Shown: positions 19,222 to 47,108, numbered from the stretch's first letter. The stretch: 64,000 nt of DNA from Vicinamibacterales bacterium (GCA_038319675.1 JBBQDM010000005.1:132850-196849), one strand, 5' to 3'. Notes: a model not told the origin generated them from the letters alone. Numbers and translations are program-made.

Positions 19222-21180
19222 CTACCGCTTTTGAATCCTGACGTACTCGAGCGCGGCCGCGAGGCGGCGACCGTCCGCGCCGCCCACATCGACCGGCCGC
19301 GTGTCACGACCAAACTGCAGGGTGAGGTGGTTGACGCCCGCGTGCCAGCTGTTCGCCTCCGTTGCGATCTCGAGCCGATGCCAACCGCTGGTGACCGGCA
19401 CCGTGGCAAGCGCGTGACCGTTGACCTCGACGGTCAGCGTCTGTGGTGCCAACCCTTCAGCCTCGAACGGCATCAGCTGAATCTGTAGCCAGAGCGGAGC
19501 CGCGTCGGCGAGGGGCAGCACCAGTGATGCGCGGGCTTCCACCCATCGGAACGTCGTCGCCCCCGCTCGTTCAGCACCATGCCAGCCGGTGCCGATGTAG
19601 TCGGTGTCATCAGCGCCGATGTCGATGCGGCCGTACGGTCGTGCCGGATCACCAAGAAAACGATTCGGACGCAGACGATCAAACCGATCCGGCGTCACGC
19701 CGTTGGCAATCGCCCAGATGATGTTCGCGGGAAATGACGGGACATGTCCCACCCAGCTATGCGCGATGGCAGCCTGACCGGCAGCGAGATCGCCGTAGGA
19801 CACGATCTGCCCGATGCGATACGCGCCGGAACGCGCCACACCCATCAACGTCACATTCCAGACAACGAGCACACCGAGTAGAGCGGCCGCAGTCAGACCA
19901 GGACGCCGCCGGACGGCCTCGGTGACGGCCATCGACAGCGCGGCAAAACCGGCGATGAGAAACGGGATCAGACTGTCGAATCGTCGCCCGCCATAACTGG
20001 CACCCGCCCACCAGTCCTCCACCGCGCCGTTGGTCCACGTCATGAGCACGAGCGTGAGCAGGCCGGTGAGTGCGAGCACGCGATGGCGTCGCCAAAGGCA
20101 AACGAGTCCGATTGCACCCGCATAGGCGGCTGGTGATGTGGCGAACAGGCCGCTGCGTGACGACCACAACACATCCACCCACTGCGCCTGCATCCACAAC
20201 AGACGCGGACTGACGGGAGGTTGCGTGATCCAGGCGCCGTACAACGCATGCCACGTCCAGAGCTGCGGCCACGTGCCGACAAAGACACCGGCCGCCAGGG
20301 CAGCGGCCAGTCGTGGCTGACGGAGCAGCCCGGCAGCTGGCACCAGGAGGATGACGGCGTTCTGCCACCGCATGATCACCATCACGCCGCCGAGTAGTCC
20401 GAGCAGAGCCCATGTGCGCCAGTCCGTGGACGTGCGCCACCGCAACCACGCCCACGTAAACGCGGCGACGGAGGCCATCGACACTGAATGGCTCATGGTG
20501 GGTTCGCGCACGAGATACCAGAGCACAAACGTGCCTCCGCCGATGGCCACCACTGCGAGGGTGGCGATCGACGCCGGCGCGATCAGGCGTGTGATGCGAT
20601 ACGACCACCACAGACCGAGCAGGCCGTAGAAGAGCCCCGCGAGGCACACCGCTTGTCGATACGGATACGACGTGCCGTCAGTGGAGACGTCCACTCCATT
20701 GCCAGCGAGCAGATGCGCGGCGATGTGGCCCACGCTGAAGAAAGGTGCCCACGCTAACGCGGGTCCGATGGCCCACGCACTCTGCGCGTACCCCGTGACG
20801 GTGGGTTCGAGCAAAAACTGGTGCTGCGCGTCGTCGATCCCCAACATCGCGTAGTCGTTGGTGAGGTTGAGGTCGCGGTCAAACCACATTGAGCGTGTAA
20901 ACGCGTAGTAGTAAAATCCGTCACTCTGCAGCCGCGCACCCAGTTGCAACTGGCCGGCGATTCCGGCTGCGTAGAGCGCGAGCAAGACGGCGGCTGTGCG
21001 TGCGCGTCGCGTGGCTCGGGCGATGACGAGGGCCGCACCCAGAACCGCCACAACAACCGCCCACCAGGGAGACAGGTCCGCTGCGGTGGTCACCCATTCA
21101 AGCAGCGATCGGCGCGCCAGTTGGCGCCCGACGAGGTCGCCGAGACCCAGTGTGATCGCGATCCAGCCGGCCCACATCAT
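19222..21180 (-). CDS. polytopic GT-C-like membrane protein with C-terminal beta-sandwich-like domain (paralog A)
   Basis: 652 aa, at least 10 hydrophobic segments. First-loop motif 'RLQSDGFYYYAFTRSMWFDRDLNLTNDY' is shared with 21177..23180 and 30648..31997. The soluble C-terminal ~150 aa ('GRIDIGADDTDYIGTGWHGAE...TFRWV...') is paralogous to the C-terminus of 21177..23180. Confidence 0.6.
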   Translation of the reverse strand: MMWAGWIAITLGLGDLVGRQLARRSLLEWVTTAADLSPWWAVVVAVLGAALVIARATRRARTAAVLLALYAAGIAGQLQLGARLQSDGFYYYAFTRSMWFDRDLNLTNDYAMLGIDDAQHQFLLEPTVTGYAQSAWAIGPALAWAPFFSVGHIAAHLLAGNGVDVSTDGTSYPYRQAVCLAGLFYGLLGLWWSYRITRLIAPASIATLAVVAIGGGTFVLWYLVREPTMSHSVSMASVAAFTWAWLRWRTSTDWRTWALLGLLGGVMVIMRWQNAVILLVPAAGLLRQPRLAAALAAGVFVGTWPQLWTWHALYGAWITQPPVSPRLLWMQAQWVDVLWSSRSGLFATSPAAYAGAIGLVCLWRRHRVLALTGLLTLVLMTWTNGAVEDWWAGASYGGRRFDSLIPFLIAGFAALSMAVTEAVRRRPGLTAAALLGVLVVWNVTLMGVARSGAYRIGQIVSYGDLAAGQAAIAHSWVGHVPSFPANIIWAIANGVTPDRFDRLRPNRFLGDPARPYGRIDIGADDTDYIGTGWHGAERAGATTFRWVEARASLVLPLADAAPLWLQIQLMPFEAEGLAPQTLTVEVNGHALATVPVTSGWHRLEIATEANSWHAGVNHLTLQFGRDTRPVDVGGADGRRLAAALEYVRIQKR

Positions 21181-23180
21181 CGGAGGGTCACCCTGAAGAC
21201 GTCGACGCCGGCCGCGAGTGCGCGCTCGTCACCGCCCAGGCCAACACTGGCGGGGGTGGTGGCGCGGGTGAACTCGAGCCTGACGCGATTGAGGCCCGTG
21301 CGCCAGGCGTCGGCAGGCGTCTGAAAGGTCACAACCTCCCAGTCGCCGGTCACGGGAAACGGACCGAAGCTGCCATGCGGTGTATGCACGAGCAGGTGTT
21401 GCATCGGCGCGTCCGGGTACATGAAGGCGCGCACGCGAATCTGAACTTCAAGGTTGCCCGTCTGTGCGAGTGGCACGAGCAGGTGGGCGTCACCGCCGGC
21501 CCAGCGGAACCGTGTGTTGCCGTCCTGCTCAGCGGCGAACCACCCGTCGCCAATCACCAGTGCATCCTCGCCGCCGATGTCGATGCGACCGGTGGGCTGC
21601 AGGGGGTCACCCAGAAACAAAGCGGGGCCAAGTTGGTCGTACATGGCCGGTGAGACGCCGTTGCGGAGCGCGAACCACAGGTTGGCTGGATAGGAGAAGG
21701 GATGACCGACCCAGCCGTGCCAGATGCGCGCCTGCTCGCCTGAGACCTGACCAAACGCGATGGCCTCACCCAATCGGACGGCGCCGCGTTGTGCCGCCGC
21801 CATCAGGGTCAGATTCCAGGCCACCATCGCCGCCGCGACACCTGCCATCACCCACTGCGGATGTGTGCTTACCCAGCGCCGCAGCGTTTCGACAGCGGCA
21901 GCCACGCCGAGCACAAGGATCGGAATGATGCCGTCGAACCGACGACCGCCGTACCCGTCCGAACCCCACCAGTCCTGAATGGAGGCGTTGAACCACACCA
22001 TCACGCCGATGGCGAGCAGCAGAGGCAGGCCAATCGCCGCGTGTTTCCGCGTGAAGCCCAGAAGGCCGAGCACACCCACATACAGAATCGGTGACATCGC
22101 GAGCAGGCCGTTGCGCGAGGAAAACAGCGTGAGTATTAACTGGGGATCGGTCCAACGAATCTTCGGTCCGACAGGTGACACCGCGAGATAGGTCCCGTAG
22201 ATGGCCTTCCACGCGAGCATCTGGGGCAGACACGCGACTGCAGCCACCGCCGTGAACACGGCACCGCCAATGAACAACTGCTGCGCACGGGCGCGATCTC
22301 CGGTGCGCCACGCAGACCACAGTCCCACGGCAACATCACACGCCGGGATGATCGCAAACAGCGCGTTCTGCCATCGGAGCAGGGTCATCAACCCCGCGAT
22401 GAGTCCGAGGATCACCCAACCAGCGATGGTTCGATTGTCGCGCGTGCGAATCCAGTAGAGCAGGAACCCCGCGACCGCCGCCATCGACGGCGCATGCGTC
22501 ATGGTCGGCTCCACCACCATGTACCAAAGCATGAAGGAGCCGCCGGCGACGAGGACGACCGCTGTGGCCGCTACGCGCGTGCGGAACCAGTGTTCACAGA
22601 ACAGCAGCGCAAGCCACCACCCGACCAGGGCGTAGACGAGTCCGGCAATCACGATCGACTGGCGATACGGAAACGAGGTGCCATCCACTGTCACGTCACG
22701 ACCCTGCGCGGCGAGTCGCGTGGCGACGACGTGACCGGTCGCGAAGAAGGGAGACCACACGAGCGCGGGGCCGACCGTCCAGGCCGAGTGCGCGTATCCC
22801 GTGGCCGTGGGTTCAAACAGATGTGGTTTGTCGCCGAGGCCGATCATCCGATAGTCGTTGGCCAGTGATACGTCGCCATCAAACGCGAGCGAGCGCAGGT
22901 AGGCGTAGTAATAAAACGCGTCGCTCTGCAGGCGCGCGCCGAACTGCAACTGCAGGGAGAGTCCACACGCCAGCGCCGTGCCGAACACCAGCAGGCGGAC
23001 GCGGTCACGTCGCACGGTCAAGCCCACGATGCCGGCGATCGCCGCGAGCAGCGCCAGGGTCGTCGCGTCTTCGGGCAGCCCGGGAATCAGGCGTATGCGG
23101 GCGAGCTGTCGGGCGACGACTTCCGTGACGACCAGCGTGAGGCCCAGCCACGCGAGACCACGCACGACTCGGGCCATCAT
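21177..23180 (-). CDS. polytopic GT-C-like membrane protein with C-terminal beta-sandwich-like domain (paralog B)
   Basis: 667 aa. 'RLQSDAFYYYAYLRSLAFDGDVSLANDY', 'GPALVWSPFFATGH', 'DGTSFPYRQS', 'LRWQNA'. C-terminus 'GRIDIGGEDALVIGDGWFAAEQDGNTRFRWA'. ATGA overlaps on both sides. Confidence 0.6.
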   Translation of the reverse strand: MMARVVRGLAWLGLTLVVTEVVARQLARIRLIPGLPEDATTLALLAAIAGIVGLTVRRDRVRLLVFGTALACGLSLQLQFGARLQSDAFYYYAYLRSLAFDGDVSLANDYRMIGLGDKPHLFEPTATGYAHSAWTVGPALVWSPFFATGHVVATRLAAQGRDVTVDGTSFPYRQSIVIAGLVYALVGWWLALLFCEHWFRTRVAATAVVLVAGGSFMLWYMVVEPTMTHAPSMAAVAGFLLYWIRTRDNRTIAGWVILGLIAGLMTLLRWQNALFAIIPACDVAVGLWSAWRTGDRARAQQLFIGGAVFTAVAAVACLPQMLAWKAIYGTYLAVSPVGPKIRWTDPQLILTLFSSRNGLLAMSPILYVGVLGLLGFTRKHAAIGLPLLLAIGVMVWFNASIQDWWGSDGYGGRRFDGIIPILVLGVAAAVETLRRWVSTHPQWVMAGVAAAMVAWNLTLMAAAQRGAVRLGEAIAFGQVSGEQARIWHGWVGHPFSYPANLWFALRNGVSPAMYDQLGPALFLGDPLQPTGRIDIGGEDALVIGDGWFAAEQDGNTRFRWAGGDAHLLVPLAQTGNLEVQIRVRAFMYPDAPMQHLLVHTPHGSFGPFPVTGDWEVVTFQTPADAWRTGLNRVRLEFTRATTPASVGLGGDERALAAGVDVFRVTLR

Positions 23181-24742
23181 TCCTGTCTGGGCACCCGGTG
23201 AATGCGCAGTTCCGGTCCCGGATGGGTGGCAGACGGCAAGAACGTGATGACATGTTCCGTGCGTCGGAAAAGGTCGCTGTAGCCGATCAGTGCGGCTTCT
23301 TCTGGCGGGTCCATGTAGAAGGCCACCCCAAAGGACTGCGACGAGGCAAGCAGATAGTCGTAGCCGCCCTCAAGGTAATGGTCCGTGGACCGAGCGATCA
23401 GTCGTCGTGGAAAGTCCATGTCGTACCGATCTGGCGGCAACAGCACTTCCCGCGTTTCGGTGGCGATGCGTGACCCCTCCGGAATGTTCGCCAGGATCCA
23501 GTCGTAGGCCTGTTTGTTGGTGCTCACTTTGGAGACGGTGGAGAGCCACCCCAGCGCGTTGGACGTCGGCGTGTATCCCAGCACCAGCAGCAGGGCGAGC
23601 GTTGTGGCGAGCGCGATGCCAGTCGGGCGCGGCCAGTGCCGCTGGTGCGCCAGACGCGTGACGGCCGTCACAAGCCACGCGACGGCACCGCCGGCGAGCA
23701 CACACAGGAAAGGCAACAGCGGCAACAGGTACCGACCCCAGACCAGGCGTTGGCCGGAGATCATGTAGTAGTACACCAGCGCAAACGTCGCGGTCAGCAC
23801 CCACGCGCGCGTCTCGGCCGCGCGCGGGGCACGCATCACCGCGCGCGCCGTCAGCAGCAGTCCCGCCCCAGCCGCTACCAGGGCGGGAATCGAGACGTTG
23901 TTGCGCAGGTGTTTGTAATACGTGAGCCACGCCGCTTCCGGCCGTGGCGGGCCGTCCGCATACATGTCGGCGAGATAGGCGAACGCGTTGAGGAACTCCG
24001 GAAGGGCAATCACTGTGTACGGCGCGCACAGCAGAAACATCACCGCAGCACCGAGGACGGAGAGCAACAAGGCGCGTACTCGCCATCGCCAGGATTCCGC
24101 GGAGAACGCCAGCGCAAGCACCGGAATCAGAAACGCCACGCCGCCGTTGTATTTGGTCGCCGCCGCTGCTCCCACAGCAAGACCCACCCACAGGAAGCCG
24201 CGCCGCTGCCGCCACTCGCCGGCGCTCAGGGTGAGCACCCAGGTCAGCGCCACAAAAAATGTCATCGGCACGTCGGTGAGCACGAAATGGGATTCGCGCA
24301 CGTGCAGGGATTGCACGGCGAAGAGGGCGGCGGCCAGCAGGCCCGTCAGTGGCGAAATGCGGCGTCCCGCCAGATAGACCAGCAGGATCGTCGCCGTGCC
24401 AAACGCGGCGGTCACGGCACGTCCCCAGAGATAGAACTCGGCCGGGGGGGCCTGGTTCAGGTTCGACCAGAGGCCACCAATACTGCCCACGACAAAACGC
24501 ACGCAGGCGACGAGGAACTGCAGGTAGATATACAGGCCGGGATAATCGAAGAAGTGCGGGTGCAGGTCACCCGTGTTCATCATCCGGACAGCGCGCTCCA
24601 TGATCTCCGGCTCGTCGATGCCGAGTGCATACGGAATGCCGTGGCCCAGTGCCGTGAAGCGGAGCACCGCCCCAATAGCGAGGATCAGCAGGAGTGCCGG
24701 CAGGTGCCAGCGTGTCTGGGCGTGCGCCATTCGGACAATCAT
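23177..24742 (-). CDS. GT39/ArnT-PMT-like phospholipid-carrier-dependent glycosyltransferase
   Basis: 'LLLILAIGAVLRFTALGHGIPYALGIDEPEIMERAVRMM..GDLHPHFFDYPGLYIYLQ' is the typical family-39/PMT_2 N-terminus with a DE motif in loop 1. About 11 TM segments. Start taken at ATG 24742 or 24730. The ORF start at 24973 is rejected because it overlaps the upstream GT4. Confidence 0.7.
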   Translation of the reverse strand: MIVRMAHAQTRWHLPALLLILAIGAVLRFTALGHGIPYALGIDEPEIMERAVRMMNTGDLHPHFFDYPGLYIYLQFLVACVRFVVGSIGGLWSNLNQAPPAEFYLWGRAVTAAFGTATILLVYLAGRRISPLTGLLAAALFAVQSLHVRESHFVLTDVPMTFFVALTWVLTLSAGEWRQRRGFLWVGLAVGAAAATKYNGGVAFLIPVLALAFSAESWRWRVRALLLSVLGAAVMFLLCAPYTVIALPEFLNAFAYLADMYADGPPRPEAAWLTYYKHLRNNVSIPALVAAGAGLLLTARAVMRAPRAAETRAWVLTATFALVYYYMISGQRLVWGRYLLPLLPFLCVLAGGAVAWLVTAVTRLAHQRHWPRPTGIALATTLALLLVLGYTPTSNALGWLSTVSKVSTNKQAYDWILANIPEGSRIATETREVLLPPDRYDMDFPRRLIARSTDHYLEGGYDYLLASSQSFGVAFYMDPPEEAALIGYSDLFRRTEHVITFLPSATHPGPELRIHRVPRQE

Positions 24743-24752
24743 TGTAGTCGGG

Positions 24753-26012
24753 TCAGGCGCGCAGGCGCCGATACACGTCCAGCAACTGATCCACGAGCAC
24801 GGGCCACGCGAAGTGAGATTCGACCAGGCGTCGCCCGGCGTGGCCGAATGTGGTGAGCCGGGCGGGAGTGGAAACCGCGTCGGTGATCGCCGCTGCGAGG
24901 CCCTCGACATCTTCAACGTCCACGAGCCAGCCGGTGCTGCCCGGCTGCACCTTGTCGGGAAGTCCACCGGCACGAGTGGCGATCACAGGGGTACGGTGCG
25001 CCATCGCTTCCAGGGTGACCAGCGAACTGCCCTCATAGCGCGTGGGATGTACAAAGACCGTCGCGGCTTCGTACCAGGCGTGCAGATCGGCGTCGGTCAC
25101 CCGACCGGCAAAGATGACGTGGGACGCCAGTCCGAGGCTGTTGACCAGCGACGTCAGTGTCTGCCGAAATGGGCCGGCACCCGCAATGACCCAGCGCCAG
25201 CCGTGGGTGTGGAGGGCACTGCCTGGCACCGCAGCCACCGCCAGCGCCCGCGCCATCAGATCAAACCCTTTGTTGTGTTCGAGCCGTCCGACGCTCAGGA
25301 AGACGGTTTCGCCCGCGCGGATCCCGTGCTGATGCCGGACAATCTGACCCTCGGCGGGTCCGGCCAGCGCACTGACCTCTGTCAGGTCGAGGCCATTGGG
25401 GATCGTGACCATCTGGCCGTCGCGAGGTGACAGATGCCGTTGCACGACGGGTTCGAGCGCATGGTCCGTGGCGAGGATCACCTGGGATCGTCGCGCGCAG
25501 GCCCGGACGGCGGCACGCAACGGCGCGTAGCCAACTCGTTTGCCGATTGATAACGTGTCGGCGCTGGCCCCGAATTCTTCGAGCCCCTGCGGATTGAGCA
25601 CCAGTGGCGGATCCGAGACGCGTCGGCCGAGCGCGTAGCCGAGCGCACTGGCGCCAAAGGCATGCACGATGTCGACCTGCCCCGCACGGGCCAGCGCCAA
25701 TGCCACACGGCCCGCCCGCCACCCGAACACCGGATAGGCAGTGCTCCGATCAAGGATCGTGGTGCCGCGACGGTTGGCGAGCGGAAACGTGACGTACGGC
25801 ACGTGGCGCACGTGAATGCGCGGAGAGGCGAACGGATCGCTCAGGCCGCGACGCCGGACGCTTGAGGGCGGAGGCGTGATGAGCGTCACGTCCACGTCGC
25901 GCATCGCGAGATGGCGCACGAGGTCGTGAACGGAGCGTTCGAGGCCCCCGTCACCGTGGAGGGGCCGCACCGCTCGGGCAATCACAGCGACGCGACAGAC
26001 AGGGGGCGTCAT
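24753..26012 (-). CDS. glycosyltransferase family 4 (GT-B, group 1)
   Basis: 'RVAVIARAVRPLHGDGGLERSVHDL' N-terminal domain. C-terminal 'HPTRYEGSSLVTLEAMAHRTPVIATRAGGLPD' (E-x7-E region). Confidence 0.85.
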   Translation of the reverse strand: MTPPVCRVAVIARAVRPLHGDGGLERSVHDLVRHLAMRDVDVTLITPPPSSVRRRGLSDPFASPRIHVRHVPYVTFPLANRRGTTILDRSTAYPVFGWRAGRVALALARAGQVDIVHAFGASALGYALGRRVSDPPLVLNPQGLEEFGASADTLSIGKRVGYAPLRAAVRACARRSQVILATDHALEPVVQRHLSPRDGQMVTIPNGLDLTEVSALAGPAEGQIVRHQHGIRAGETVFLSVGRLEHNKGFDLMARALAVAAVPGSALHTHGWRWVIAGAGPFRQTLTSLVNSLGLASHVIFAGRVTDADLHAWYEAATVFVHPTRYEGSSLVTLEAMAHRTPVIATRAGGLPDKVQPGSTGWLVDVEDVEGLAAAITDAVSTPARLTTFGHAGRRLVESHFAWPVLVDQLLDVYRRLRA

Positions 26013-27262
26013 GTGGACAGCACCTGGTGATACACGACTTCCACACGGGCGGCCACCTGCGACGCTTCGAACCGATCACGGGCGTGTCGAGCGGCGGCGG
26101 CCCCGAGCGCCCCGCGCAGAGCGGCGTCGCCGGCCAACCGCGCCAGGTCGTGTGCAAATCCTTTCGGCGTGTCTGACACAAGTCCAGTGACCTCGTGCTG
26201 CAGGATGTCGCGCGTGCCTCCGGTGTTCATCGCGGCGATGGGCACGCCCAAGGCGGACGCTTCGATCAACACGCGGCTCAGCGACTCCGGACCATACGAC
26301 GGAAACGCGAGCAACTGCGCGCGTCGCATCAGGTCGAGCACCTCGATACGGTCGCGCCACCCGAGCCACTGCACGGCGCGACCGCGACGCACGGCGTCGG
26401 CGGCCAGGGTCTCGCGCAGCGGCCCGTCACCCACCACCACGAGCGGCAACGTGATGCCGGCGGCATCGAGTGCCGGCAGCAGAAACTGCACGCCTTTGTT
26501 GATGGCGAGCTTGCCCGCATAGAGGACAAACGGTTCCCCTGACGGGCGCTCCGTCACGACGAGATCGTCCATGTTGACCGGATTGGGGATCGTGCTGACG
26601 CGCGCGGGATCCAACTCGGGCGCTCGGGCGATCAGGTCTGCGGTGATCACGGAGCTGACACCGATCACGGCATCGGCCTGCGCGAGCGTGCGCCGTTTGG
26701 TCGCGAGGTTCCTCCGCATGTACGGAATCAGCGCCCACGACAGTGGCCCCAGGCTGCCGGCGCGTCCCCGTGTGCACGTGCGCATGTGCGCGACGGTGCA
26801 GGAGGGGCAGAGCGATGACTGCGTCGCGTCGATGATCAGGTCGGACCAATAACAGACGGGCCAATAATCACGCACGGTCGCCACACTCGGGATGCCAAGC
26901 TGCTTCGCCGCCCGCACCGTCGGCACCGTTGTCATCGTATGTTGCGCGTGGAGCAGGTCCACGGGATCGGTGGAGCAACGCGTCACCAGATATCGCGTGA
27001 GGTGCGACCACAGGCGCTCGTTCTTCAATACGTTGCGCAGTGCCGGGACGTTGGGCACACGGATGCGGTATCTGGTCACCGCGATGGTGTCGTAGTGCGC
27101 GGATTCAATGTGTGTCGTGTCGCCGGGCACAACGTGGACGACCGACACCCGGTGCCCGCGGTGCTGGAGTTGCCGCGCCAGTTCGAAGGTGCTCCACCCC
27201 GACCCTCCGGAGCCAGGCGGAAACGAATCGGTCACGAGCAGAACGCTGAGTGGGGCCGCCAT
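26009..27262 (-). CDS. glycosyltransferase family 4 with Cys-rich insertion
   Basis: 'SVLLVTDSFPPGSGGSGWSTFELARQL', 'FPSYGPESLSRVLIEASALGVPIAAMNTGGTRD'. Insertion 'WPVCYW...SLCPSCTVAHMRTC'. Start at ATG 27262 (M37 of the ORF), 1 nt from the upstream stop. Confidence 0.85.
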   Translation of the reverse strand: MAAPLSVLLVTDSFPPGSGGSGWSTFELARQLQHRGHRVSVVHVVPGDTTHIESAHYDTIAVTRYRIRVPNVPALRNVLKNERLWSHLTRYLVTRCSTDPVDLLHAQHTMTTVPTVRAAKQLGIPSVATVRDYWPVCYWSDLIIDATQSSLCPSCTVAHMRTCTRGRAGSLGPLSWALIPYMRRNLATKRRTLAQADAVIGVSSVITADLIARAPELDPARVSTIPNPVNMDDLVVTERPSGEPFVLYAGKLAINKGVQFLLPALDAAGITLPLVVVGDGPLRETLAADAVRRGRAVQWLGWRDRIEVLDLMRRAQLLAFPSYGPESLSRVLIEASALGVPIAAMNTGGTRDILQHEVTGLVSDTPKGFAHDLARLAGDAALRGALGAAAARHARDRFEASQVAARVEVVYHQVLST

Positions 27263-27263
27263 G

Positions 27264-28421
27264 TCAGGCACGAGTGAGAGTACGCAAGCGTGCGTCGATG
27301 TCGGCACAGTGGGCCCGCCAGCTGTATTGCGCCACGGCGCGTGTGCGTGCCGCCTGGCCCAGCCGCGCACGCAACGTGGCGTCCGTCAACCGCACAAGCG
27401 CGGCGTCGAGTGTGCGGGGATCCATCGGATCGTAGAGCAACCCTTCGGATTCATCGCCGACAAGATGAGCGATGCGTGGCAGGCGTGGGGCGACGACCGG
27501 CAGGCCGGACGACATGTATTCGAAAATCTTCAGCGGCGACCAGTAGAAGCCGAGGGCGAGTGGTTTGTGTTTGCCGGGGTCAAACGGCGCAACGCCGATG
27601 TCGGCAGCGGCGAGGCACTGCGGCAGATCGCCGTGCGGCACGGCGCCGGTGAATGTGACGCCGGGCAGGTCGCGCGCGGCGTATTCGGCGTGCGCTCGTT
27701 CGGGCCCGTCGCCAATGAACACGGCACCCAGGCGGTGTTCGCCCCGCGCATGCAGACGAGCGAGTGAGGCGGAGAGTTGCACGACGCCGTGCCACGAGCG
27801 AAACGCACCGGCGAACACACAGAGCACGCGCTGTGGATCACGCGCGAAGGGGAGTGGTCCAGTGGCGTCCGGACGGAAGTGATCGACGTTGGCGCCCCAC
27901 TCGGCTTCCAGTATGCGTGCCGGTTCCACCCAGGATGGCAGGATGCCGCGATTCGGCGTGATGAACAGGTCGGTCTCGCGACACAACGCGTCGCGCCAAC
28001 GACGCATCGGCTCAACAATTAAGGCGCGATCGATCCGGCTCTTGAGTGAGCCCGGGTAGTCGATGATGGGCGCATTCACTTCGAGCACGGCGAGAATGCC
28101 GAGGCGCTTGGCCGCGCGAACCCCTTCGCCACCGAAGTTGTAGTACCGCTCCATGATGACGTTGGCGCCGACCTGCCGTGCCAACGCTTCCACCGCGCCG
28201 ACACGTGTCCACCGCAGTGCCGATTGTCCAAACGGGGGCGTCAGGTGGTGCCAATGCACGGGCGTAGTCCCGTCCGGAGCGGGCCAGGGGCCGCCTTGTC
28301 CGACCAGCACGTGCACGGTGTGGCCCAACGCGGCCAGGCCCTGCGCCACCGCCTGCACATGCACCGAGCCGCCGAGTGTGCCGGGCACACGCTGGTCGAG
28401 CGCGGCATAGACGATCGTCAC
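27264..28421 (-). CDS. glycosyltransferase family 4
   Basis: 'VTIVYAALDQRVPGTLGGSVHVQAVAQGLAALGHTVHVL', 'YWSPLKIFEYMSSGLPVVAPRLPRI'. GTG at 28421 overlaps the upstream TGA (GTGA). The ORF start at 28538 is rejected. Confidence 0.8.
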   Translation of the reverse strand: MTIVYAALDQRVPGTLGGSVHVQAVAQGLAALGHTVHVLVGQGGPWPAPDGTTPVHWHHLTPPFGQSALRWTRVGAVEALARQVGANVIMERYYNFGGEGVRAAKRLGILAVLEVNAPIIDYPGSLKSRIDRALIVEPMRRWRDALCRETDLFITPNRGILPSWVEPARILEAEWGANVDHFRPDATGPLPFARDPQRVLCVFAGAFRSWHGVVQLSASLARLHARGEHRLGAVFIGDGPERAHAEYAARDLPGVTFTGAVPHGDLPQCLAAADIGVAPFDPGKHKPLALGFYWSPLKIFEYMSSGLPVVAPRLPRIAHLVGDESEGLLYDPMDPRTLDAALVRLTDATLRARLGQAARTRAVAQYSWRAHCADIDARLRTLTRA

Positions 28422-29476
28422 GAGGGTGGTGCCTCCGTGGAGACTTTGCGCAGCCGCGCAAAAAATGGCCCGGAGCGGAAGCGGCCGAGGAGCAGCACAT
28501 CGAGGTACATGAGTGCGGAGAACCCGCGCAGCGCCCAATACATCGCGCCACCGGTCCGGAGTCGTGCCTTGGCGTCCTTGCGCGCCTCCCGCACAGCCGT
28601 GCCCTTGTCGTCGACCACACCACCGGCCCGGCGTCGCGCACGACGAGTGACCATCTGCTCGCCCATCCGCATCAGGATGTTTTCGACGAAGGCCCCGATG
28701 ATGGGTGTGTAGTACGTGATGCGGTCAACCGTGAAACCACACGCGGCCGCGACACGATGCAGGTCTTCGTGATCGGCGATTGGGTTGAGGTGATCCGACT
28801 TGCGGAGGCGTTCGGTCCGCAGGTCGAGCAGACCCAGGCGTTCAAGACCGTGGGCCAGCGTGTTCACCAGACGCACGCCGACCGCCATCGGGCCGTTCTT
28901 GCGCACGTGTGTGTAGACAAACAGCGCCCCGCCTGGCACGAGTACACGGTTGGCTTCCCGCAGCATGTCGTGTAGCGCCGGCGGTGACAGGTGTTCGAGC
29001 ACGTCGAGCGACCACCCCTTGGTGAACGCCGCGTCCGTCAGCGGCAGACGGCGCAAATCACCCAGCAGTAGGTCGGTGCCGTCGAGCGCTTCGCGCGAAA
29101 AAAATGGGCTGATGTCCACGCCTGTCATCGCCGCGCCGGTATCGCGGTTCCACAGCATCGCCCGCCCGCTGCCGCATCCCAGGTCCACGACACGATCCGC
29201 GGGTGAGAGGTCCAGAAACGCGCGCAGACGGTCGTTGCGAATCTTTGAACCCAGCAACGGCGGGGCGACGGTCTCGTGACGGGCATCAATGTGCAGCGCT
29301 TCATCGAGGTACTTCGTCTGTTCTTCGAACGCCGCCAGGGGGCGCAGGTCGAGATAACCCTGCGAGCCGTCAAACGCTCGCTGGCACGCGGCACACCGGG
29401 CGCCTGCCCCGGTAGGCGTGAGGGTGGTCTCGCACTCGGGGCAACGCACCACAGTGAACAGGGTTGGCGAAATCAT
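28418..29476 (-). CDS. class I SAM-dependent methyltransferase with N-terminal zinc-ribbon and C-terminal hydrophobic helix
   Basis: 'VVRCPECETTLTP..ARCAACQRAFDGSQGYLDLRP' (CxxC...CxxC). SAM motif I 'VVDLGCGSGR'. C-terminal 'AMYWALRGFSALMYLDVLLLGRF'. Confidence 0.8.
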   Translation of the reverse strand: MISPTLFTVVRCPECETTLTPTGAGARCAACQRAFDGSQGYLDLRPLAAFEEQTKYLDEALHIDARHETVAPPLLGSKIRNDRLRAFLDLSPADRVVDLGCGSGRAMLWNRDTGAAMTGVDISPFFSREALDGTDLLLGDLRRLPLTDAAFTKGWSLDVLEHLSPPALHDMLREANRVLVPGGALFVYTHVRKNGPMAVGVRLVNTLAHGLERLGLLDLRTERLRKSDHLNPIADHEDLHRVAAACGFTVDRITYYTPIIGAFVENILMRMGEQMVTRRARRRAGGVVDDKGTAVREARKDAKARLRTGGAMYWALRGFSALMYLDVLLLGRFRSGPFFARLRKVSTEAPPS

Positions 29477-30651
29477 GCGCGCACCGCCGCGGTCAACGCC
29501 AGTTCGAGTCGCTCGGCGCGCCGGTCCCAGGTGTACTGGGGCGCGAGTGCGCGTGCGGCCGCGCCAAGGCGACGACGCAATTGCGGGTCGGCTTGAAGCC
29601 GACCCAGCGCAGCAGCCAGTGCATCGGCGTCGCCGGCCGGCACCAGCAGGGCTGTGTGTTCGTGCGTCAACACTTCACGCAGGGAGGGGAGATCGGATGC
29701 CACGATGGCCTTGCCACGGGTGAGGTACTCGAAGAGTTTCAACGGGGAAGTATAGCGGTCCGAGATTGCGCTGTGTGTATTGGGCAGCACCAGTACGTCA
29801 GCCTCGTCGAGCGCGTGTGCCACCGCGTGCGGGGCGAGCAGGCCGGTCATCGTGACGCGCTCGGTCAGATGCAGATCCTGCAGCAGGCGTTGGATACGTC
29901 CAAGGTCGGCCTCACCCGGATGCCCGCCGACGATCACGCCGCGGACATCCGGTGTCTGGGCGAGCGCGTGCAGAAAAATGTCGATGCCTTTCCAGGGATA
30001 CAGGTGCCCGGCGTAGCCGACGCACAGCGGACCCGGCACCCAATCACGGGTCGAGACAGGTGAGGCGACCGCACCATCGGGCACCACGAACACCGCGTCT
30101 CGATGACCGTACCGTGCGGCGAGGTCGGTGGCGAGTGCCTGCGTAATCGTGACGTAGGCGTCCGCCGTGCGCCACACCAGCGATTCGCGTCGATCGAGCC
30201 GGCGCACCTTTGAGGAGCTTGGTGCCTGGTTGGGCTTGCCAAGCAGCCGCGGCATTTCCTCGGCCACGATCGGGGCAATGCCGTGTGACTCATAGACCAG
30301 CGCGGGACGCCGACTGGCAGGAAGACGCGCGAGCAACGAGGCGAGACCAAGGTCGCGCGTGAACACCACATCCACGCCGCCGGAGAGCGCACGGCGCACG
30401 CCAGTCCACAACATCTGAGCGCGCCGCAGGGGCGCGACGCCCGAGGTCGTGATGGGCTCGATGGTCAGCTGGGCGCAGGGCGGAAGTCCGTAGAAGGCGA
30501 ACGGATCCCGAGCCGGCACGGTGGTGTCGGGACGGACGAGGAGCGTCAGGGCATGCCCACGGGCTGCCAGCGCGTGGCAGGTGTGCATGGTCTGTACGCC
30601 ATTGGCCCGTTCAATCGGAAAGCGGGTGTCGGCAAACGAGAGAATGTTCAC
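29473..30651 (-). CDS. glycosyltransferase family 4
   Basis: 'MNILSFADTRFPIERANGVQTMHTCHALAARGHALTLLV', 'YTSPLKLFEYLTRGKAIVASDLPSLRE'. GTG start at 30651 in a GTGA overlap. Confidence 0.85.
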   Translation of the reverse strand: MNILSFADTRFPIERANGVQTMHTCHALAARGHALTLLVRPDTTVPARDPFAFYGLPPCAQLTIEPITTSGVAPLRRAQMLWTGVRRALSGGVDVVFTRDLGLASLLARLPASRRPALVYESHGIAPIVAEEMPRLLGKPNQAPSSSKVRRLDRRESLVWRTADAYVTITQALATDLAARYGHRDAVFVVPDGAVASPVSTRDWVPGPLCVGYAGHLYPWKGIDIFLHALAQTPDVRGVIVGGHPGEADLGRIQRLLQDLHLTERVTMTGLLAPHAVAHALDEADVLVLPNTHSAISDRYTSPLKLFEYLTRGKAIVASDLPSLREVLTHEHTALLVPAGDADALAAALGRLQADPQLRRRLGAAARALAPQYTWDRRAERLELALTAAVRA

Positions 30652-31997
30652 TGGCGTGACTGGCCGTAAAACGAGTCGCGGTCGGTCAGATACCGCCAGG
30701 CCAGTGCGGGCCCTTCACGCGGCAACTCCACAAACGTGACCCATGCATTGTCGCTCAAAGTCAGGCGCTGGCGATCCATGCGATGCGTGCCGAACTGCAC
30801 CAGCAGTCCCAGGTTCCACCAGACGCAGGCCAGCACGGCCGCCCAGGCCAGTCGCCGCGGTTGTTGGTCGGTCGAGAAGACCACAGCGAGCCCCAGCACA
30901 AGCAGGGGCGTGAGCTCCACAAAACGCCGCTGGCCGAAGGCGCCCGCCACGGTCCACGACTCCACGGCGCCGTTGATGTAGACCTGCAGCAGCACCATGA
31001 CGAGCGCACACGCGCCGATCCACGCGCCATCAGGCAGCAGGGTGCGCGTGCGGCCCAGGGCGAGCGCCACCAGACCCGCCAGTGCCAGGACGGCCAACGG
31101 CGTCCACGCAAACCATCCGTGCGCCGGGCTGATCAACACCTCGAAGAAATGCGGAGACGACCACGACATTTTGTTGCCCACCGACTCGTGGGGTCCGATG
31201 TACCCGTTAATCGCGTACGACGCGATCAGGTGCGGCGCAAACGCCGCGATGGCGCACAACGCTCCAACCCCGGCTCTGGTCATCGTCTCTCGCAGTGACT
31301 GGTGGCGCAGCGAGGATCGCAGAAAGTCGATGGCCGGCACGAGCAGAAACAGCACCGTCTGATCGCGCATGGTGCCCATCAACCCACCGGTCAGACCGAG
31401 CGCGACCACTCCCTGAAGCGTCCAGGTGGTGCGCTCGTGGAGCCAGACCCACAGGAACAACGCTACGGCGAATGTGGCGCACGCGTGTGAAAACGGCGGG
31501 GCCACGAACATGTAGAAAATCAGCGGCGTGCCCGCCCCAACCGCCAACGCCGGAGCCAGGCCACGACCGACGACCCGCTGCGCCATCAGCGCAGACAGGG
31601 CAATCGCCATCCACCCGTAGAACGCCGACCCGTAGGCCACAGCCGCGACGTACGGTGCGCTGTAGCCATCCTGCGGCGCACCGGTCAACCCCGCGATCAC
31701 GTGGCCCACCGCGTAAAACGGCGCCCACAATAGCGCCGGGCCAATCGTTCCAAAATTAATCCGGCGTCCCGCCGCCGTAAACCGTTCGGCGAGGAAGGTG
31801 TCGTGGAAGCCCGATCCACCGGCGCCGGCGTCGTGGAAGTGTTGGTACTCGTTCTGGAAACTGAGGTCGCCGTCAAAGGCGAGTGAGCGGAGGAAGGCGA
31901 AGTACTGCACTTCATCCGACGCATAGATACGCGTGGTGACAGCCGGCAACGTGACAAGCGCGAGCAGGGCGCACAGGACGATGGTTCGGCGCATCAC
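30648..31997 (-). CDS. polytopic GT-C-like membrane protein (paralog C, lacks the C-terminal soluble domain)
   Basis: 449 aa. 'IYASDEVQYFAFLRSLAFDGDLSFQNEY', 'GPALLWAPFYAVGH', 'DGYSAPY', 'MRDQT' align with paralogs A and B. Confidence 0.6.
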   Translation of the reverse strand: MMRRTIVLCALLALVTLPAVTTRIYASDEVQYFAFLRSLAFDGDLSFQNEYQHFHDAGAGGSGFHDTFLAERFTAAGRRINFGTIGPALLWAPFYAVGHVIAGLTGAPQDGYSAPYVAAVAYGSAFYGWMAIALSALMAQRVVGRGLAPALAVGAGTPLIFYMFVAPPFSHACATFAVALFLWVWLHERTTWTLQGVVALGLTGGLMGTMRDQTVLFLLVPAIDFLRSSLRHQSLRETMTRAGVGALCAIAAFAPHLIASYAINGYIGPHESVGNKMSWSSPHFFEVLISPAHGWFAWTPLAVLALAGLVALALGRTRTLLPDGAWIGACALVMVLLQVYINGAVESWTVAGAFGQRRFVELTPLLVLGLAVVFSTDQQPRRLAWAAVLACVWWNLGLLVQFGTHRMDRQRLTLSDNAWVTFVELPREGPALAWRYLTDRDSFYGQSRQ

Positions 31998-32764
31998 CGT
32001 GGTGGAACTCCGAGCGAGGTGGCCAGCACCTGCTGCAACACCATGGCGCCGTTGAAGCCCGCGTGGTTGGCCATACTGGCCGCCACCGACCGTCGCCAGA
32101 TGTACACCGCGCCCCAGCCCATCCCCATCAGGCCGATGGCAAGCGCGACGTCGTACCCCTGGTCAATGTGCAGAATGCCGAAGATCAGACCGAACACCAG
32201 GTTGCCGATCCAGGCACCGCCCAGCCCCTGGGCCGCGCGATGCAGGATGAAGCCGCGCTGCAACTCTTCGCGCACGCCACCGGCGAGCACCACGACGACC
32301 GCAAAGATCGCGGCATCAAACGGGTTTTGCATGAACGCGGCCAGGGGATTCTCGGGCACCGTGTGCAGCCACGGCGCGATCCAGCGCAATCCGGCCACCA
32401 GACCGGTGAGCGCGATGAACACCACCGGCACAAACAACAGGCCCCGAAATATCTCCGGCAGGATCGGCCGGGTGCCGAAAAAGACATCGTGCGACTTCTC
32501 GCCGCTGACCTTGAGGAACGTGAAGATCAGCAACGCCACCAGCGCGGTGTCAATGAAACTCACCGTGGCAATAAACTCGAGCGACAACCCAGCACTGCTA
32601 TACGGGGCCATGCCCAGAGCGACGATGAGGACGCCGGCGACCAGCAGTTGCGTGGGGAAGCCGGAGACCGCGATCACCTGCAGGAGTGTGAGGCCCCAAT
32701 GTGATGGTGGGGTGGGCGTGGTGACGACCGGCGAAACCGGAGTGTCGAGAGTTTCGCCAAGCAT
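31994..32764 (-). CDS. CPBP-family (CAAX-type) intramembrane glutamic protease
   Basis: Motifs 'GGVREELQRGF' (EExxxR), 'FGLIFGILH' (FxxxH) and 'ANHAGFNG' (HxxxN/D) in a 6-7 TM protein. First gene of the minus-strand operon. Confidence 0.8.
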   Translation of the reverse strand: MLGETLDTPVSPVVTTPTPPSHWGLTLLQVIAVSGFPTQLLVAGVLIVALGMAPYSSAGLSLEFIATVSFIDTALVALLIFTFLKVSGEKSHDVFFGTRPILPEIFRGLLFVPVVFIALTGLVAGLRWIAPWLHTVPENPLAAFMQNPFDAAIFAVVVVLAGGVREELQRGFILHRAAQGLGGAWIGNLVFGLIFGILHIDQGYDVALAIGLMGMGWGAVYIWRRSVAASMANHAGFNGAMVLQQVLATSLGVPPR

Positions 32765-32940
32765 CCGAGCAACAATATCAGTGCCCCGAGCCTCCCCTTT
32801 GTTTCGTGATATCTTCGCTTTTGTCGAAGGAGTCCGTTCGTCCAGTGACGACGTGTAACAGGCATGAAAAATAGGGCAGGTGAAAAAACGTCAGTACTGA
32901 CAGGGGTTCTCTCAAGATGTCGCGGCATCAGGCCGATAGA

Positions 32941-42760: not shown

Positions 42761-42838
42761 GCGTTGCCTGTTGCCGAGTCTACTCCAGCCGGCGCATGCT
42801 GCGGCGTCGGGGGCAGGTGCTCCCAGAAAGACTGCACC

Positions 42839-47105: not shown

Positions 47106-47108
47106 ACG

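What the first reader, a model, noticed from the sequence alone, without database searches (positions are those of the whole stretch)
19222..32764. Ten-gene translationally coupled glycosylation operon rich in GT-C-type membrane enzymes and lacking canonical polysaccharide export or priming genes
All ten minus-strand genes are joined by 4-nt overlaps or gaps of at most 10 nt. The order is CPBP protease, GT-C-like paralog C, GT4, zinc-ribbon SAM methyltransferase, GT4, GT4, GT4, GT39-like, GT-C-like paralog B, GT-C-like paralog A.

There are four cytoplasmic GT-B (GT4) enzymes and four polytopic periplasm-facing candidates. There is no Wzx flippase, Wzy polymerase, Wzz/Wza, ABC exporter, priming phosphoglycosyltransferase or nucleotide-sugar synthesis gene inside the block.

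The logic of cytosolic GT4 steps followed by several carrier-lipid-dependent GT-C steps recalls mycobacterial PIM/LM/LAM assembly (PimA/PimB are GT4; PimE, Mpt and Emb are GT-C) and protein O-mannosylation, rather than a classical EPS or O-antigen locus. In a diderm high-GC soil-type bacterium this would be an undescribed lipoglycan or protein-glycosylation pathway. That is an inference.
Basis: partly seen in the sequence, partly recalled or inferred. Interest (0 to 1): 0.75.

Follow-up and report, generated by a model that had tools for sequence, protein, structure and literature searches.

The report
Conserved GT4 plus GT-C glycan operon
A tightly packed ten-gene operon, conserved across the soil acidobacterial class Vicinamibacteria, pairs four cytoplasmic sugar-adding enzymes and a methyltransferase with four membrane enzymes that add sugars outside the cytoplasm, so it probably builds an envelope glycoconjugate that nobody has yet described.

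Summary
There are ten minus-strand genes at 19222-32764, in the stated order. Seven junctions are ATGA/GTGA 4-nt overlaps and two are gaps of 1 and 10 nt.

Pfam confirms a CPBP protease, four GT4 enzymes, a zinc-ribbon SAM methyltransferase and a PMT-like enzyme. The three Pfam-less paralogs are GT-C enzymes. AlphaFold models (pLDDT 85-88) match only GT-C structures (STT3, ArnT, ALG12, Emb, AglB). Acidic residues in the first periplasmic loop are invariant. The two long paralogs carry a C-terminal CBM-like beta-sandwich. They belong to a very large uncharacterised family (about 7,800 representative clusters) that is distantly related to PMT_2.

The core operon is syntenic in 46 Vicinamibacteria genomes and is at least as conserved as the neighbouring BamA-like and TamB genes. 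Paralog A is a recent tandem duplicate. The PMT-like gene was not detected in 11 of the 46 loci, including a six-locus subclade with a rearranged gene order. No export, priming or nucleotide-sugar gene occurs among the ORFs scanned across the 64-kb window.

The most likely function is a two-compartment assembly line for a lipid-linked glycan: cytoplasmic GT4 steps followed by periplasmic GT-C steps. The product, anchor and acceptor are unknown. The PIM/LAM analogy is one of logic only. This is a new variant of a known kind, of moderate interest.

The parts
31994..32764 (-). CPBP/Rce1-like intramembrane glutamic protease. It is the first gene of the operon.
   Evidence: Pfam PF02517 E 2e-14. 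Catalytic motifs REExQR, FGxxH and HAGFN are at least 90% conserved in 26 sequences. Several hydrophobic segments. GTGA overlap with the next gene.
30648..31997 (-). Short GT-C glycosyltransferase (paralog C, 449 aa). About 13 TM helices and no extra domain. It represents a large Pfam-less family.
   Evidence: AF2 pLDDT 84.7, pTM 0.89. The top 37 Foldseek PDB hits are all GT-C enzymes: STT3 E 1.5e-4, ArnT TMq 0.54, ALG12 TMq 0.55. D28, E29, D42 and D44 in the first periplasmic loop are invariant among close orthologs. Across distant relatives D42 is invariant and D28 and D44 nearly so. Profile-profile hit to the PMT-like gene, 77% probability, E 2e-5.
29473..30651 (-). GT4 glycosyltransferase a (GT-B fold, soluble)
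   Evidence: Pfam Glycos_transf_1 8.8e-24 plus Glyco_trans_4_4. No TM segment. Only generic PDB relatives: Tll1590, MshA, PimA.
28418..29476 (-). SAM-dependent methyltransferase with an N-terminal CxxC...CxxC zinc ribbon. It is the most conserved protein of the operon.
   Evidence: Pfam Methyltransf_11 1.5e-15. Cysteines, the DLGCGSGR motif and a C-terminal SGPFFA motif are conserved in 47 sequences. Median 58% identity in distant genomes.
27264..28421 (-). GT4 glycosyltransferase b. The start is taken at GTG 28421.
   Evidence: Pfam Glyco_trans_1_4 7e-20. GTGA overlap with the methyltransferase stop.
26009..27262 (-). GT4 glycosyltransferase c. The start is taken at ATG 27262.
   Evidence: Pfam Glycos_transf_1 3.6e-22 plus Glyco_transf_4 1.7e-19. 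1-nt gap after GT4b.
24753..26012 (-). GT4 glycosyltransferase d
   Evidence: Pfam Glycos_transf_1 1.2e-35. PDB relatives are generic: Tll1590 3e-26, GlgM, PimB'.
23177..24742 (-). PMT/ArnT-type GT-C glycosyltransferase (521 aa). The start is taken at ATG 24742. It was not detected in 11 of the 46 core loci.
   Evidence: Pfam PMT 6e-12 (46 bits against a cut-off of 22.7) and PMT_2 6e-10. The DEPE motif in the first loop is at least 90% conserved in 46 sequences. Yeast Pmt1 is the only PDB sequence hit, E 9e-5. Detected in 35 of 46 core loci.
21177..23180 (-). Long GT-C glycosyltransferase (paralog B, 667 aa). It consists of two extra N-terminal TM helices, the GT-C core and a C-terminal CBM-like beta-sandwich (about residues 525-667).
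   Evidence: AF2 pLDDT 87.8, pTM 0.83. Foldseek top hits are AglB, EmbA/B, STT3 and AftA for the membrane part, and CBM6/CBM35/CBM4 (TMt 0.5-0.63) for the C-terminus. Invariant residues include S86, D101 and D103; D87 is nearly invariant.
19222..21180 (-). Long GT-C glycosyltransferase (paralog A, 652 aa). It is a recent tandem duplicate of paralog B.
   Evidence: 42% identical to B over the full length. Present in only 9 of 46 operon loci, nearly all of them among the loci closest to the window.

Best explanation
The operon encodes one two-compartment assembly line for an envelope glycoconjugate that is core to the class Vicinamibacteria.

Proposed steps:
1. On the cytoplasmic face of the inner membrane, four mutually divergent, soluble GT4 (GT-B) enzymes each add one sugar from a nucleotide sugar to a lipid-linked acceptor. 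The acceptor could be a membrane lipid or a polyprenyl (di)phosphate primed by an unlinked gene. The zinc-ribbon SAM methyltransferase methylates one residue.
2. An unlinked flippase moves the lipid-linked oligosaccharide to the periplasmic face.
3. Two to four GT-C enzymes take over there: the short paralog C, the PMT-like enzyme and the long paralog(s) B/A. They extend or branch the glycan with polyprenyl-phosphate sugars, or one of them hands it to its final acceptor. The long paralogs hold the glycan with their C-terminal CBM-like domain.
4. The co-translated CPBP protease processes or scaffolds a membrane partner.

Shown here: gene content and order, translational coupling, the folds, conserved catalytic-type residues, and conservation across 46 genomes.

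Inferred: that the GT4 product is the GT-C acceptor, the donor type, the direction of the pathway, the lipid anchor and the final product.
For: - Tight coupling of all ten genes. The same order recurs in 46 loci, down to about 42-58% protein identity.
- In 39 distant genomes the operon proteins (median 42-58% identity) are at least as conserved as the adjacent Omp85 (40.8%) and TamB (41.4%). This indicates a core function.
- GC content is the same as in the flanks, so there is no sign of an island.
- The GT4 proteins are soluble and at most 28% identical to each other, which suggests four different specificities.
- Paralogs B and C have a GT-C fold, and every significant structural neighbour is a GT-C enzyme. 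As general knowledge, not tested here, those enzymes use lipid-phosphate-linked donors and act outside the cytoplasm.
- Acidic residues in the first periplasmic loop and an FGxR loop are invariant even among relatives of 27-39% identity.
- 21 of 40 distant family members hit Pfam PMT_2 and 27 of 40 hit the NCBIfam putative-glycosyltransferase model NF047440.
- One relative (P0373) is fused to an ArnC/PpgS/Dol-P-hexose-synthase-like GT2 domain. This hints at a polyprenyl-phosphate-sugar donor.
- The GT-C plus C-terminal CBM architecture has experimental precedent for binding a glycan acceptor in EmbC, AftD and GT136 ORF12 (PMC11127046).
Against: - There is no biochemical or genetic evidence of any kind.
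- No polyprenyl-phosphate-sugar synthase, flippase, priming enzyme or nucleotide-sugar gene lies in the operon or in the 64-kb window. Three necessary functions therefore have to be assumed to lie elsewhere.
- The GT2 fusion is a single sequence from one contig.
- Outside Vicinamibacteria, paralog-C-like genes are mostly orphan genes among housekeeping neighbours, so the family is not intrinsically tied to GT4 partners.
- The PMT-like gene was not detected in 11 of the 46 loci, so it may not be essential.
- Foldseek TM-scores are modest: 0.30-0.38 for B and 0.42-0.55 for C.
- The CBM assignment is at fold level only.
Confidence: 0.45

Rival explanations
1. Protein glycosylation by an ALG/Agl-like route. 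The GT4 enzymes and the methyltransferase build a lipid-linked oligosaccharide. Periplasmic GT-C enzymes extend it. One GT-C (an OST-like paralog or the PMT-like enzyme) then transfers sugar or glycan to envelope proteins. The CPBP protease matures the protein substrate.
For: - The best E-values for both models are to the oligosaccharyltransferases STT3 and AglB.
- ALG12, ALG3 and ALG9 are also among the hits.
- One gene passes the Pfam threshold for the protein O-mannosyltransferase domain and keeps its DE motif.
- A protease gene is translationally coupled to the first GT-C gene.
- From general knowledge, archaeal Agl clusters likewise combine cytosolic glycosyltransferases, a methyltransferase (AglP) and a GT-C enzyme.
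Against: - No WWDYG-type C-terminal domain was noted in the paralog sequences, and no MIR or PMT_4TMC domain was detected by Pfam.
- The extra domain of the long paralogs looks like a carbohydrate-binding module rather than a peptide-binding domain.
- Several GT-C enzymes are conserved where one transferase would suffice.
- No candidate acceptor protein is encoded in the operon.
- Structural similarity to OSTs is at the general GT-C level, with TM 0.3-0.47.
Confidence: 0.2
2. The GT-C enzymes are post-assembly decorators of a polymer made elsewhere (LPS core or O-antigen, EPS, or a lipid such as lipid A). This would resemble ArnT, GtrC or GT136 three-component systems. The GT4 enzymes would make part of that polymer or its core. 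The block would then be one fragment of a larger dispersed pathway rather than a self-contained line.
For: - Priming, flippase, export and donor-synthase genes are absent from the operon and the window.
- The GT-C plus CBM architecture matches GT136 ORF12, which decorates a finished O-antigen.
- ArnT is among the best structural matches (TMq 0.54).
- Extra long paralogs occur at unrelated sites in the same genomes. One lies directly downstream of psd and a CDP-alcohol phosphatidyltransferase gene in L045.
- Members of the family in other phyla are orphan genes.
Against: - Known three-component systems keep the GT2 synthase and the flippase next to the GT-C gene (PMC11127046). Neither is here.
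- No WaaL, Wzy, GT9 or Lpx gene is nearby.
- The fixed, coupled order of GT4 and GT-C genes across 46 genomes argues for one pathway.
Confidence: 0.25
3. The genes are functionally unrelated neighbours held together by lineage-wide synteny.
For: Synteny in this class extends well beyond the operon, to acyl-CoA carboxylase, TamB and Omp85 on one side and ribonucleotide reductase on the other. Conserved adjacency alone is therefore weak evidence here.
Against: - Seven of nine junctions are 4-nt start/stop overlaps.
- All ten products are glycan or membrane enzymes.
- In the rearranged subclade the genes moved but stayed together.
Confidence: 0.05

Closest known systems
Mycobacterial/corynebacterial PIM -> LM/LAM pathway (PimA/PimB' GT4; PimE, MptA-C, EmbC and AftA-D GT-C)
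   Same: - Cytoplasmic GT4 steps on a membrane lipid are followed by several periplasm-facing GT-C steps.
- Neither system uses a phosphoglycosyltransferase, Wzx, Wzy or an ABC exporter.
- Some of the GT-C enzymes carry C-terminal CBM domains (Emb, AftD). Emb and AftA are among the structural hits.
   Different: - There is no orthology. Hits to PimA/PimB' are as weak as hits to any other GT4. PimE is a poor match (E 0.08, TM 0.26).
- The host is a diderm acidobacterium.
- A phosphatidylinositol anchor is untested.
- The genes here form one coupled operon that also contains a methyltransferase and a CPBP protease.
Eukaryotic dolichol (ALG) pathway with OST, and archaeal Agl N-glycosylation
   Same: The order of enzyme classes is the same: cytosolic GT4-type steps (ALG2/ALG11, from general knowledge), flipping, luminal GT-C extension (ALG3/9/12), then GT-C transfer (STT3/AglB). 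ALG12, ALG3, ALG9, STT3 and AglB are all significant structural neighbours. Agl clusters also include a sugar methyltransferase (general knowledge).
   Different: No OST signature domain was noted in the sequences and no acceptor protein is known. The similarity is at fold level only, with 10-16% sequence identity.
Three-component periplasmic glycosylation systems (GtrABC; ArnC/ArnT; Citrobacter GT136 ORF12 system, PMC11127046)
   Same: A GT-C enzyme uses a polyprenyl-phosphate monosaccharide in the periplasm. ORF12 has the same GT-C plus C-terminal CBM layout as paralogs A and B. ArnT is a top structural match.
   Different: The GT2 donor synthase and the flippase that define these systems are absent from the operon and the window. 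Here there are two to four GT-C genes and four GT4 genes.
NCBIfam NF047440, LA_3751/LA_3752 family putative glycosyltransferase (Leptospira), and Pfam PMT_2 (PF13231)
   Same: These are the only sequence models that detect the paralog family. Paralog B hits NF047440 at 1.6e-7. Of 40 distant relatives, 27 hit NF047440 and 21 hit PMT_2.
   Different: All scores are far below the curated NCBIfam cut-off (30.6 bits against 200). The window proteins themselves do not reach any Pfam threshold. NF047440 is itself uncharacterised, and no paper was found for it.

Membership tests
GT-C glycosyltransferase superfamily (paralogs A, B, C) | Polytopic membrane domain (7-13 TM helices) structurally superimposable on solved GT-C enzymes | tested here: met
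   AF2 models with pLDDT 87.8 and 84.7. All significant Foldseek hits to the membrane part are GT-C enzymes: the top 37 hits for paralog C and the top 6 for paralog B. TM-scores are moderate, 0.30-0.55.
GT-C glycosyltransferase superfamily (paralogs A, B, C) | Extracytoplasmic loop after the first core TM helix, with short helices and conserved catalytic Asp/Glu | tested here: met
   In paralog C, helices 28-42, 48-56 and 64-69 follow TM1. D42 is invariant, and D28, Y32 and D44 are nearly invariant, across relatives of 27-39% identity. In paralog B, D101 and D103 are invariant and D87 is nearly invariant. The orientation is inferred from the positive-inside rule only.
GT-C glycosyltransferase superfamily (paralogs A, B, C) | Uses a polyprenyl-(di)phosphate-linked sugar donor | not testable with these tools
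   There is only an indirect hint: one relative (P0373) is fused to an ArnC/PpgS-like GT2 domain, and it is a singleton.
GT39 protein O-mannosyltransferase (gene 23177-24742) | PMT catalytic domain with the DE motif in loop 1 | tested here: met
   PF02366 46.1 bits against a cut-off of 22.7. DEPE is at least 90% conserved in 46 sequences. Yeast Pmt1 E 9e-5.
GT39 protein O-mannosyltransferase (gene 23177-24742) | C-terminal PMT_4TMC module (bacterial and eukaryotic) or MIR domain (eukaryotic) | tested here: not met
   No PF16192 or MIR hit at E 0.01 or better. The match covers only residues 169-326 of the longest ORF. It is best described as PMT/ArnT-type rather than as a GT39 member.
GT39 protein O-mannosyltransferase (gene 23177-24742) | Ser/Thr protein acceptor with a polyprenyl-P-mannose donor | not testable with these tools
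   No data.
GT4 retaining glycosyltransferases (four genes) | GT-B fold with Glyco_transf_4 N-domain and Glycos_transf_1 C-domain | tested here: met
   All four pass the Pfam thresholds for both halves. No NCBIfam equivalog threshold is reached, so no specific function can be assigned.
PIM/LM/LAM pathway | PimA/PimB' orthologs, a PimE-type GT-C and phosphatidylinositol synthesis | tested here: not met
   PimA/PimB' E-values of 1e-6 to 1e-17 are no better than those for unrelated GT4 enzymes. PimE E 0.08, TM 0.26. PI synthase and inositol genes could not be searched for outside the window.
Wzx/Wzy-, ABC- or synthase-dependent polysaccharide locus | Initiating phosphoglycosyltransferase plus flippase/polymerase, ABC exporter or synthase, and OPX/PCP export proteins | tested here: not met
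   None was found among the larger ORFs scanned across the 64-kb window. The rest of the genome is untested.
Three-component periplasmic glycosylation system | Adjacent polyprenyl-phosphate-sugar synthase, flippase and GT-C genes | tested here: not met
   Only the GT-C component is present.
CPBP (Rce1-like) glutamic intramembrane protease | Motifs EExxxR, FxxxH and HxxxN/D in TM helices | tested here: met
   PF02517 54 bits. REExQR, FGxxH and HAGFN are conserved.

The most novel reading that the evidence does not exclude
Vicinamibacteria, one of the most abundant soil bacterial lineages, make a major envelope glycoconjugate by a bacterial counterpart of the eukaryotic ALG/GPI or mycobacterial LAM logic. 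GT4 enzymes would build a methylated oligosaccharide on a lipid in the cytoplasm. A previously unrecognised GT-C family would then elongate it in the periplasm. One version would end with en-bloc transfer or protease-coupled attachment to protein. In a diderm this would be either a LAM-like lipoglycan or an ALG-like protein glycosylation pathway. It would also assign a first function to a family of about 7,800 sequence clusters that has no Pfam model.
Probability: 0.2. Interest if true: 0.8.

Novelty: new variant of a known kind. Interest (0 to 1): 0.52.

Why it matters
Acidobacterial subdivision 6 (Vicinamibacteria) is known to be widespread and abundant in soils, yet its envelope chemistry is essentially unknown. 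This operon is conserved across the class, is vertically inherited, and is under at least as much constraint as the neighbouring BamA-like gene. Its product is therefore probably a major envelope component.

The operon also gives a genomic anchor for a very large GT-C subfamily. That subfamily has about 7,800 clusters at 50% identity, no Pfam model, no solved relative detectable by sequence, and no literature in the library searched. Several GT-C enzymes coupled to GT4 enzymes are textbook for mycobacteria and for the eukaryotic ER, but I know of no such arrangement described for diderm bacteria. A defined product here would broaden that picture.

Tried and rejected
- **TamB/BamA link rejected.** The convergent TamB, Omp85 and small-protein cluster is always next to the operon. 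However, synteny in this class continues further, to biotin carboxylase and BCCP beyond TamB and to ribonucleotide reductase on the other side. The adjacency is therefore lineage synteny and not specific evidence.
- **PDB by sequence.** Profiles of paralog B (A1) and of the wider family (A3) found no solved relative.
- **Rfam.** A scan of the whole window found nothing at gathering thresholds.
- **Promoters and terminators.** The consensus scan found nothing above the shuffle expectation. A sigma-54 motif 7-22 nt upstream of the CPBP start is a 2-mismatch match and is not enriched (29 found, 31 expected).
- **Assigning GT4 specificity.** PDB and NCBIfam gave only generic sub-threshold hits.
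- **Context of distant paralog-C-like genes.** These were examined to find recurrent partners. Most are orphan genes among housekeeping neighbours. Peptidase_C39_2 recurs in two lineages but its role is unexplained.
- **GT2-GT-C fusion P0373.** It is real in the database but is a single sequence on one contig.
- **Reading beyond the window.** Exact look-ups of four window proteins near the edges all failed, so donor-synthase, flippase and priming genes could not be sought in the same genome.
- **Literature.** Searches on Vicinamibacter, GT-C with Acidobacteria, LA_3751, lipoglycan and CPBP with GT-C found no description of this locus or family.


Full report
**Observation**

Ten ORFs on the minus strand fill 19222-32764 with no room for other genes. 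Three starts are placed at the first codon that does not run into the upstream gene: GTG 28421, ATG 27262 and ATG 24742. With those starts, seven of the nine junctions are exact ATGA/GTGA 4-nt overlaps. The other two are gaps of 1 nt (GT4b>GT4c) and 10 nt (GT4d>PMT-like).

Codon-position GC is that of real high-GC genes (GC3 0.75-0.82, GC2 about 0.5). The long antisense ORFs lack this pattern. GC content of the block (0.65-0.67) equals that of its flanks.

**Gene identities**

Pfam gives, in order of transcription:

| Window coordinates | Product | Evidence |
|---|---|---|
| 31994-32764 | Rce1-like CPBP protease | PF02517, 2e-14 |
| 30648-31997 | paralog C | no Pfam hit |
| 29473-30651 | GT4a | Pfam GT4 domains |
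| 28418-29476 | SAM methyltransferase | Methyltransf_11, 1.5e-15 |
| 27264-28421 | GT4b | Pfam GT4 domains |
| 26009-27262 | GT4c | Pfam GT4 domains |
| 24753-26012 | GT4d | Pfam GT4 domains |
| 23177-24742 | PMT-like | PMT 6e-12, PMT_2 6e-10 |
| 21177-23180 | paralog B | no Pfam hit |
| 19222-21180 | paralog A | no Pfam hit |

- The CPBP catalytic motifs, the methyltransferase zinc-ribbon cysteines with the SAM motif, and the DEPE motif of the PMT-like protein are each at least 90% conserved among 26-47 sequences.
- The four GT4 proteins have no hydrophobic segments, apart from one borderline stretch in GT4c. They are at most 28% identical to one another, so they are old, distinct enzymes and not recent copies.
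- NCBIfam and PDB sequence searches give only generic, sub-threshold similarities: PEP-CTERM-associated GT4s, MshA, BshA, PimA/PimB', PglA/H/J and a sucrose-phosphate-synthase-like protein. No donor or acceptor can be assigned.

**The three unannotated membrane proteins are GT-C enzymes**

A and B are 42% identical over their full length. B and C are 32% identical over 390 residues.

- *Paralog B.* An AlphaFold model built on 30 sequences has pLDDT 87.8 and pTM 0.83. Its six significant PDB neighbours for the membrane part are AglB, EmbA/EmbB and yeast STT3, followed by AftA. The C-terminal roughly 140 residues form a beta-sandwich that matches CBM6, CBM35 and CBM4 modules (TM normalised to target 0.5-0.63).
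- *Paralog C.* Its model has pLDDT 84.7 and pTM 0.89. The first 37 hits are all GT-C enzymes: STT3, ArnT (TMq 0.54), ALG12 (TMq 0.55, rmsd 5.6), Emb, AglB, AftA, AftB, ALG3, ALG9, DPY19, Pmt4, PimE, PglB and AftD. Transporters appear only below them, at probabilities under 0.25.
- *Loop after TM1.* In paralog C, TM1 is followed by three short helices, as in the first extracytoplasmic loop of GT-C enzymes. This loop carries D28, E29, D42 and D44, which are invariant among close orthologs. Among 40 relatives of only 27-39% identity, D42 is invariant and D28, Y32 and D44 are nearly so. An FGxR motif in a low-confidence loop is also conserved.
- *Remote homology.* A profile-profile comparison links paralog C to the PMT-like gene (77% probability, E 2e-5).

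**Family**

- A profile of paralog C finds 7,818 representatives of 50%-identity clusters at E up to 1e-3, and 5,672 at E up to 1e-10.
- Of 40 diverse members, 27 hit the uncharacterised NCBIfam model NF047440 (LA_3751/LA_3752 putative glycosyltransferase) and 21 hit Pfam PMT_2.
- No solved structure is detectable by sequence. No paper was found.
- One member (P0373) has an N-terminal GT2 domain of the ArnC/PpgS/dolichyl-phosphate-hexose-synthase kind fused to the GT-C domain. This hints at a polyprenyl-phosphate-sugar donor, but it is a single sequence.
- In other lineages the short form is usually an orphan gene among housekeeping genes.

**Distribution and evolution**

All 77 related loci from species-representative genomes come from uncultured Acidobacteriota. 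Most are labelled Vicinamibacterales or Vicinamibacteria. A few carry other labels, which I take to be mislabelling.

- The order CPBP, C, GT4a, MT, GT4b, GT4c, GT4d, PMT-like, B recurs in most loci. 46 loci carry at least six of the seven core genes and 34 carry all seven.
- Paralog A is present in only 9 of the 46 loci, nearly all of them among the loci closest to the window. It is a recent tandem duplicate.
- A six-locus subclade has the order CPBP, C, GT4a, MT, B, GT4b, GT4c, GT4d and no detected PMT-like gene.
- Some genomes insert a second, reverse-strand methyltransferase before the PMT-like gene.
- In 39 distant genomes the operon proteins keep a median 42-58% identity to the window proteins. 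The adjacent Omp85 keeps 40.8% and TamB 41.4%. This argues for a core, vertically inherited function.
- Additional long (B/A-type) paralogs sit elsewhere in the same genomes in unrelated contexts.

**Surroundings**

On one side, transcribed convergently, lie TamB (11456-15634), a 964-aa POTRA-Omp85 protein (15634-18528) and a small secreted protein. On the other side, transcribed divergently, lies a class II ribonucleotide reductase.

The larger ORFs scanned in the rest of the window are housekeeping genes or have no family hit. None is a glycan export, priming, flippase or nucleotide-sugar gene. The adjacency to TamB and Omp85 is conserved, but so are genes further out on both sides. I do not count it as functional evidence.

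**Mechanism**

The evidence supports one pathway split between two compartments. Four soluble GT4 enzymes and a methyltransferase work on the cytoplasmic face. Two to four GT-C enzymes work on the periplasmic face. The long paralogs carry a CBM-like domain of the kind that binds the glycan acceptor in EmbC, AftD and GT136 ORF12 (PMC11127046). That the GT4 product is the GT-C acceptor is inferred from the translational coupling and the conserved order. It is not shown.

| Reading | Estimated probability |
|---|---|
| Lipid-linked glycan extended in the periplasm and retained in the envelope | 0.45 |
| Decoration of a polymer or lipid made elsewhere | 0.25 |
| Protein glycosylation of the ALG/Agl or PMT kind | 0.20 |
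| Unrelated neighbouring genes | 0.05 |

The role of the CPBP protease is unknown in all readings.

**Comparison with known systems**

The logic matches several known pathways about equally:
- Mycobacterial PIM/LM/LAM.
- The eukaryotic dolichol pathway, in which (from general knowledge) ALG2 and ALG11 are GT4 enzymes, ALG3/9/12 are GT-C enzymes and STT3 is a GT-C enzyme.
- Archaeal Agl N-glycosylation.

Membership of any of these fails where it could be tested:
- There are no PimA/PimE orthologs.
- No OST signature domain was noted in the sequences.
- Pfam detected no PMT_4TMC or MIR domain.
- The GT2 synthase and flippase of three-component systems are missing.
- There is no Wzx/Wzy/ABC machinery.

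**Verdict**

The operon is a new variant of a known kind: a conserved GT4-plus-multi-GT-C operon in a diderm, built around an uncharacterised GT-C family. The product, anchor, donors and acceptor all remain undetermined. The search for donor-synthase, flippase and priming genes could not be done because only 64 kb of the genome is available.

Noticed in passing
window 11456-19022 (+): TamB (1392 aa), then a 964-aa POTRA-Omp85 (BamA-like) protein, then a 164-aa secreted protein with no Pfam hit. The first two genes abut head to tail. The cluster converges on the glycosylation operon and is syntenic in about 40 related genomes. The small protein sits where skp/ompH often lies, but that was not tested.
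   Followed up: partly
L045:8247-11824: In another Vicinamibacterales genome, an extra long GT-C plus CBM paralog lies directly downstream of phosphatidylserine decarboxylase and a CDP-alcohol phosphatidyltransferase. The gene ends overlap or abut, which hints that some members of the family may act on phospholipids. In the distant locus L079 the same two lipid genes lie about 5 kb from a paralog-C-like gene.
   Followed up: partly
L078:6998-8209, L079:11424-12551, L080:11424-12551: In two distant lineages a Peptidase_C39_2 protein is encoded next to or near the paralog-C-like GT-C gene. In L078 that GT-C is the one fused to GT2, and it is followed by a TPR protein. The recurrence is unexplained.
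   Followed up: no
L053:3839-5344, L060:714-4071, L070:1086-4489; also L072:8507-9781, L074:673-2139, L047:5093-8155: In the rearranged subclade, an NtrC-like response regulator lies just upstream of the CPBP gene, with a histidine-kinase-like gene beside it in L060 and L070. These were judged from the N-terminal sequence and size only. Sigma-54 activators or kinases, confirmed by Pfam, also flank stand-alone long paralogs. The window itself has no such regulator and no convincing sigma-54 promoter.
   Followed up: partly
L040:7097-8353 and L012:7454-8230: Some genomes carry an extra reverse-strand SAM methyltransferase between GT4d and the PMT-like gene. In L040 there is also a small membrane protein that I judged to be DUF2062-like by eye; no family search was run on it.
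   Followed up: no
window 42000-48000: GC content rises to 0.68-0.70, against about 0.65 elsewhere. The stretch holds large ORFs with no Pfam hit (42764-43477, 43474-44736, and 44490-47105 at 871 aa), next to a 451-aa protein with weak FG-GAP and Nu1-like hits (41405-42760).
   Followed up: no
window 39935-41233 (+): A HipA-like kinase (HipA_C 5e-53, Couple_hipA 1e-16), presumably the toxin of a toxin-antitoxin pair. The partner gene was not sought.
   Followed up: no
window 33163-36000 (+) and 32765-33162: A class II (B12-dependent) ribonucleotide reductase with a TSCPD domain is transcribed divergently from the operon across a 398-bp intergenic region. No Rfam family, riboswitches included, reaches threshold anywhere in the window.
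   Followed up: partly
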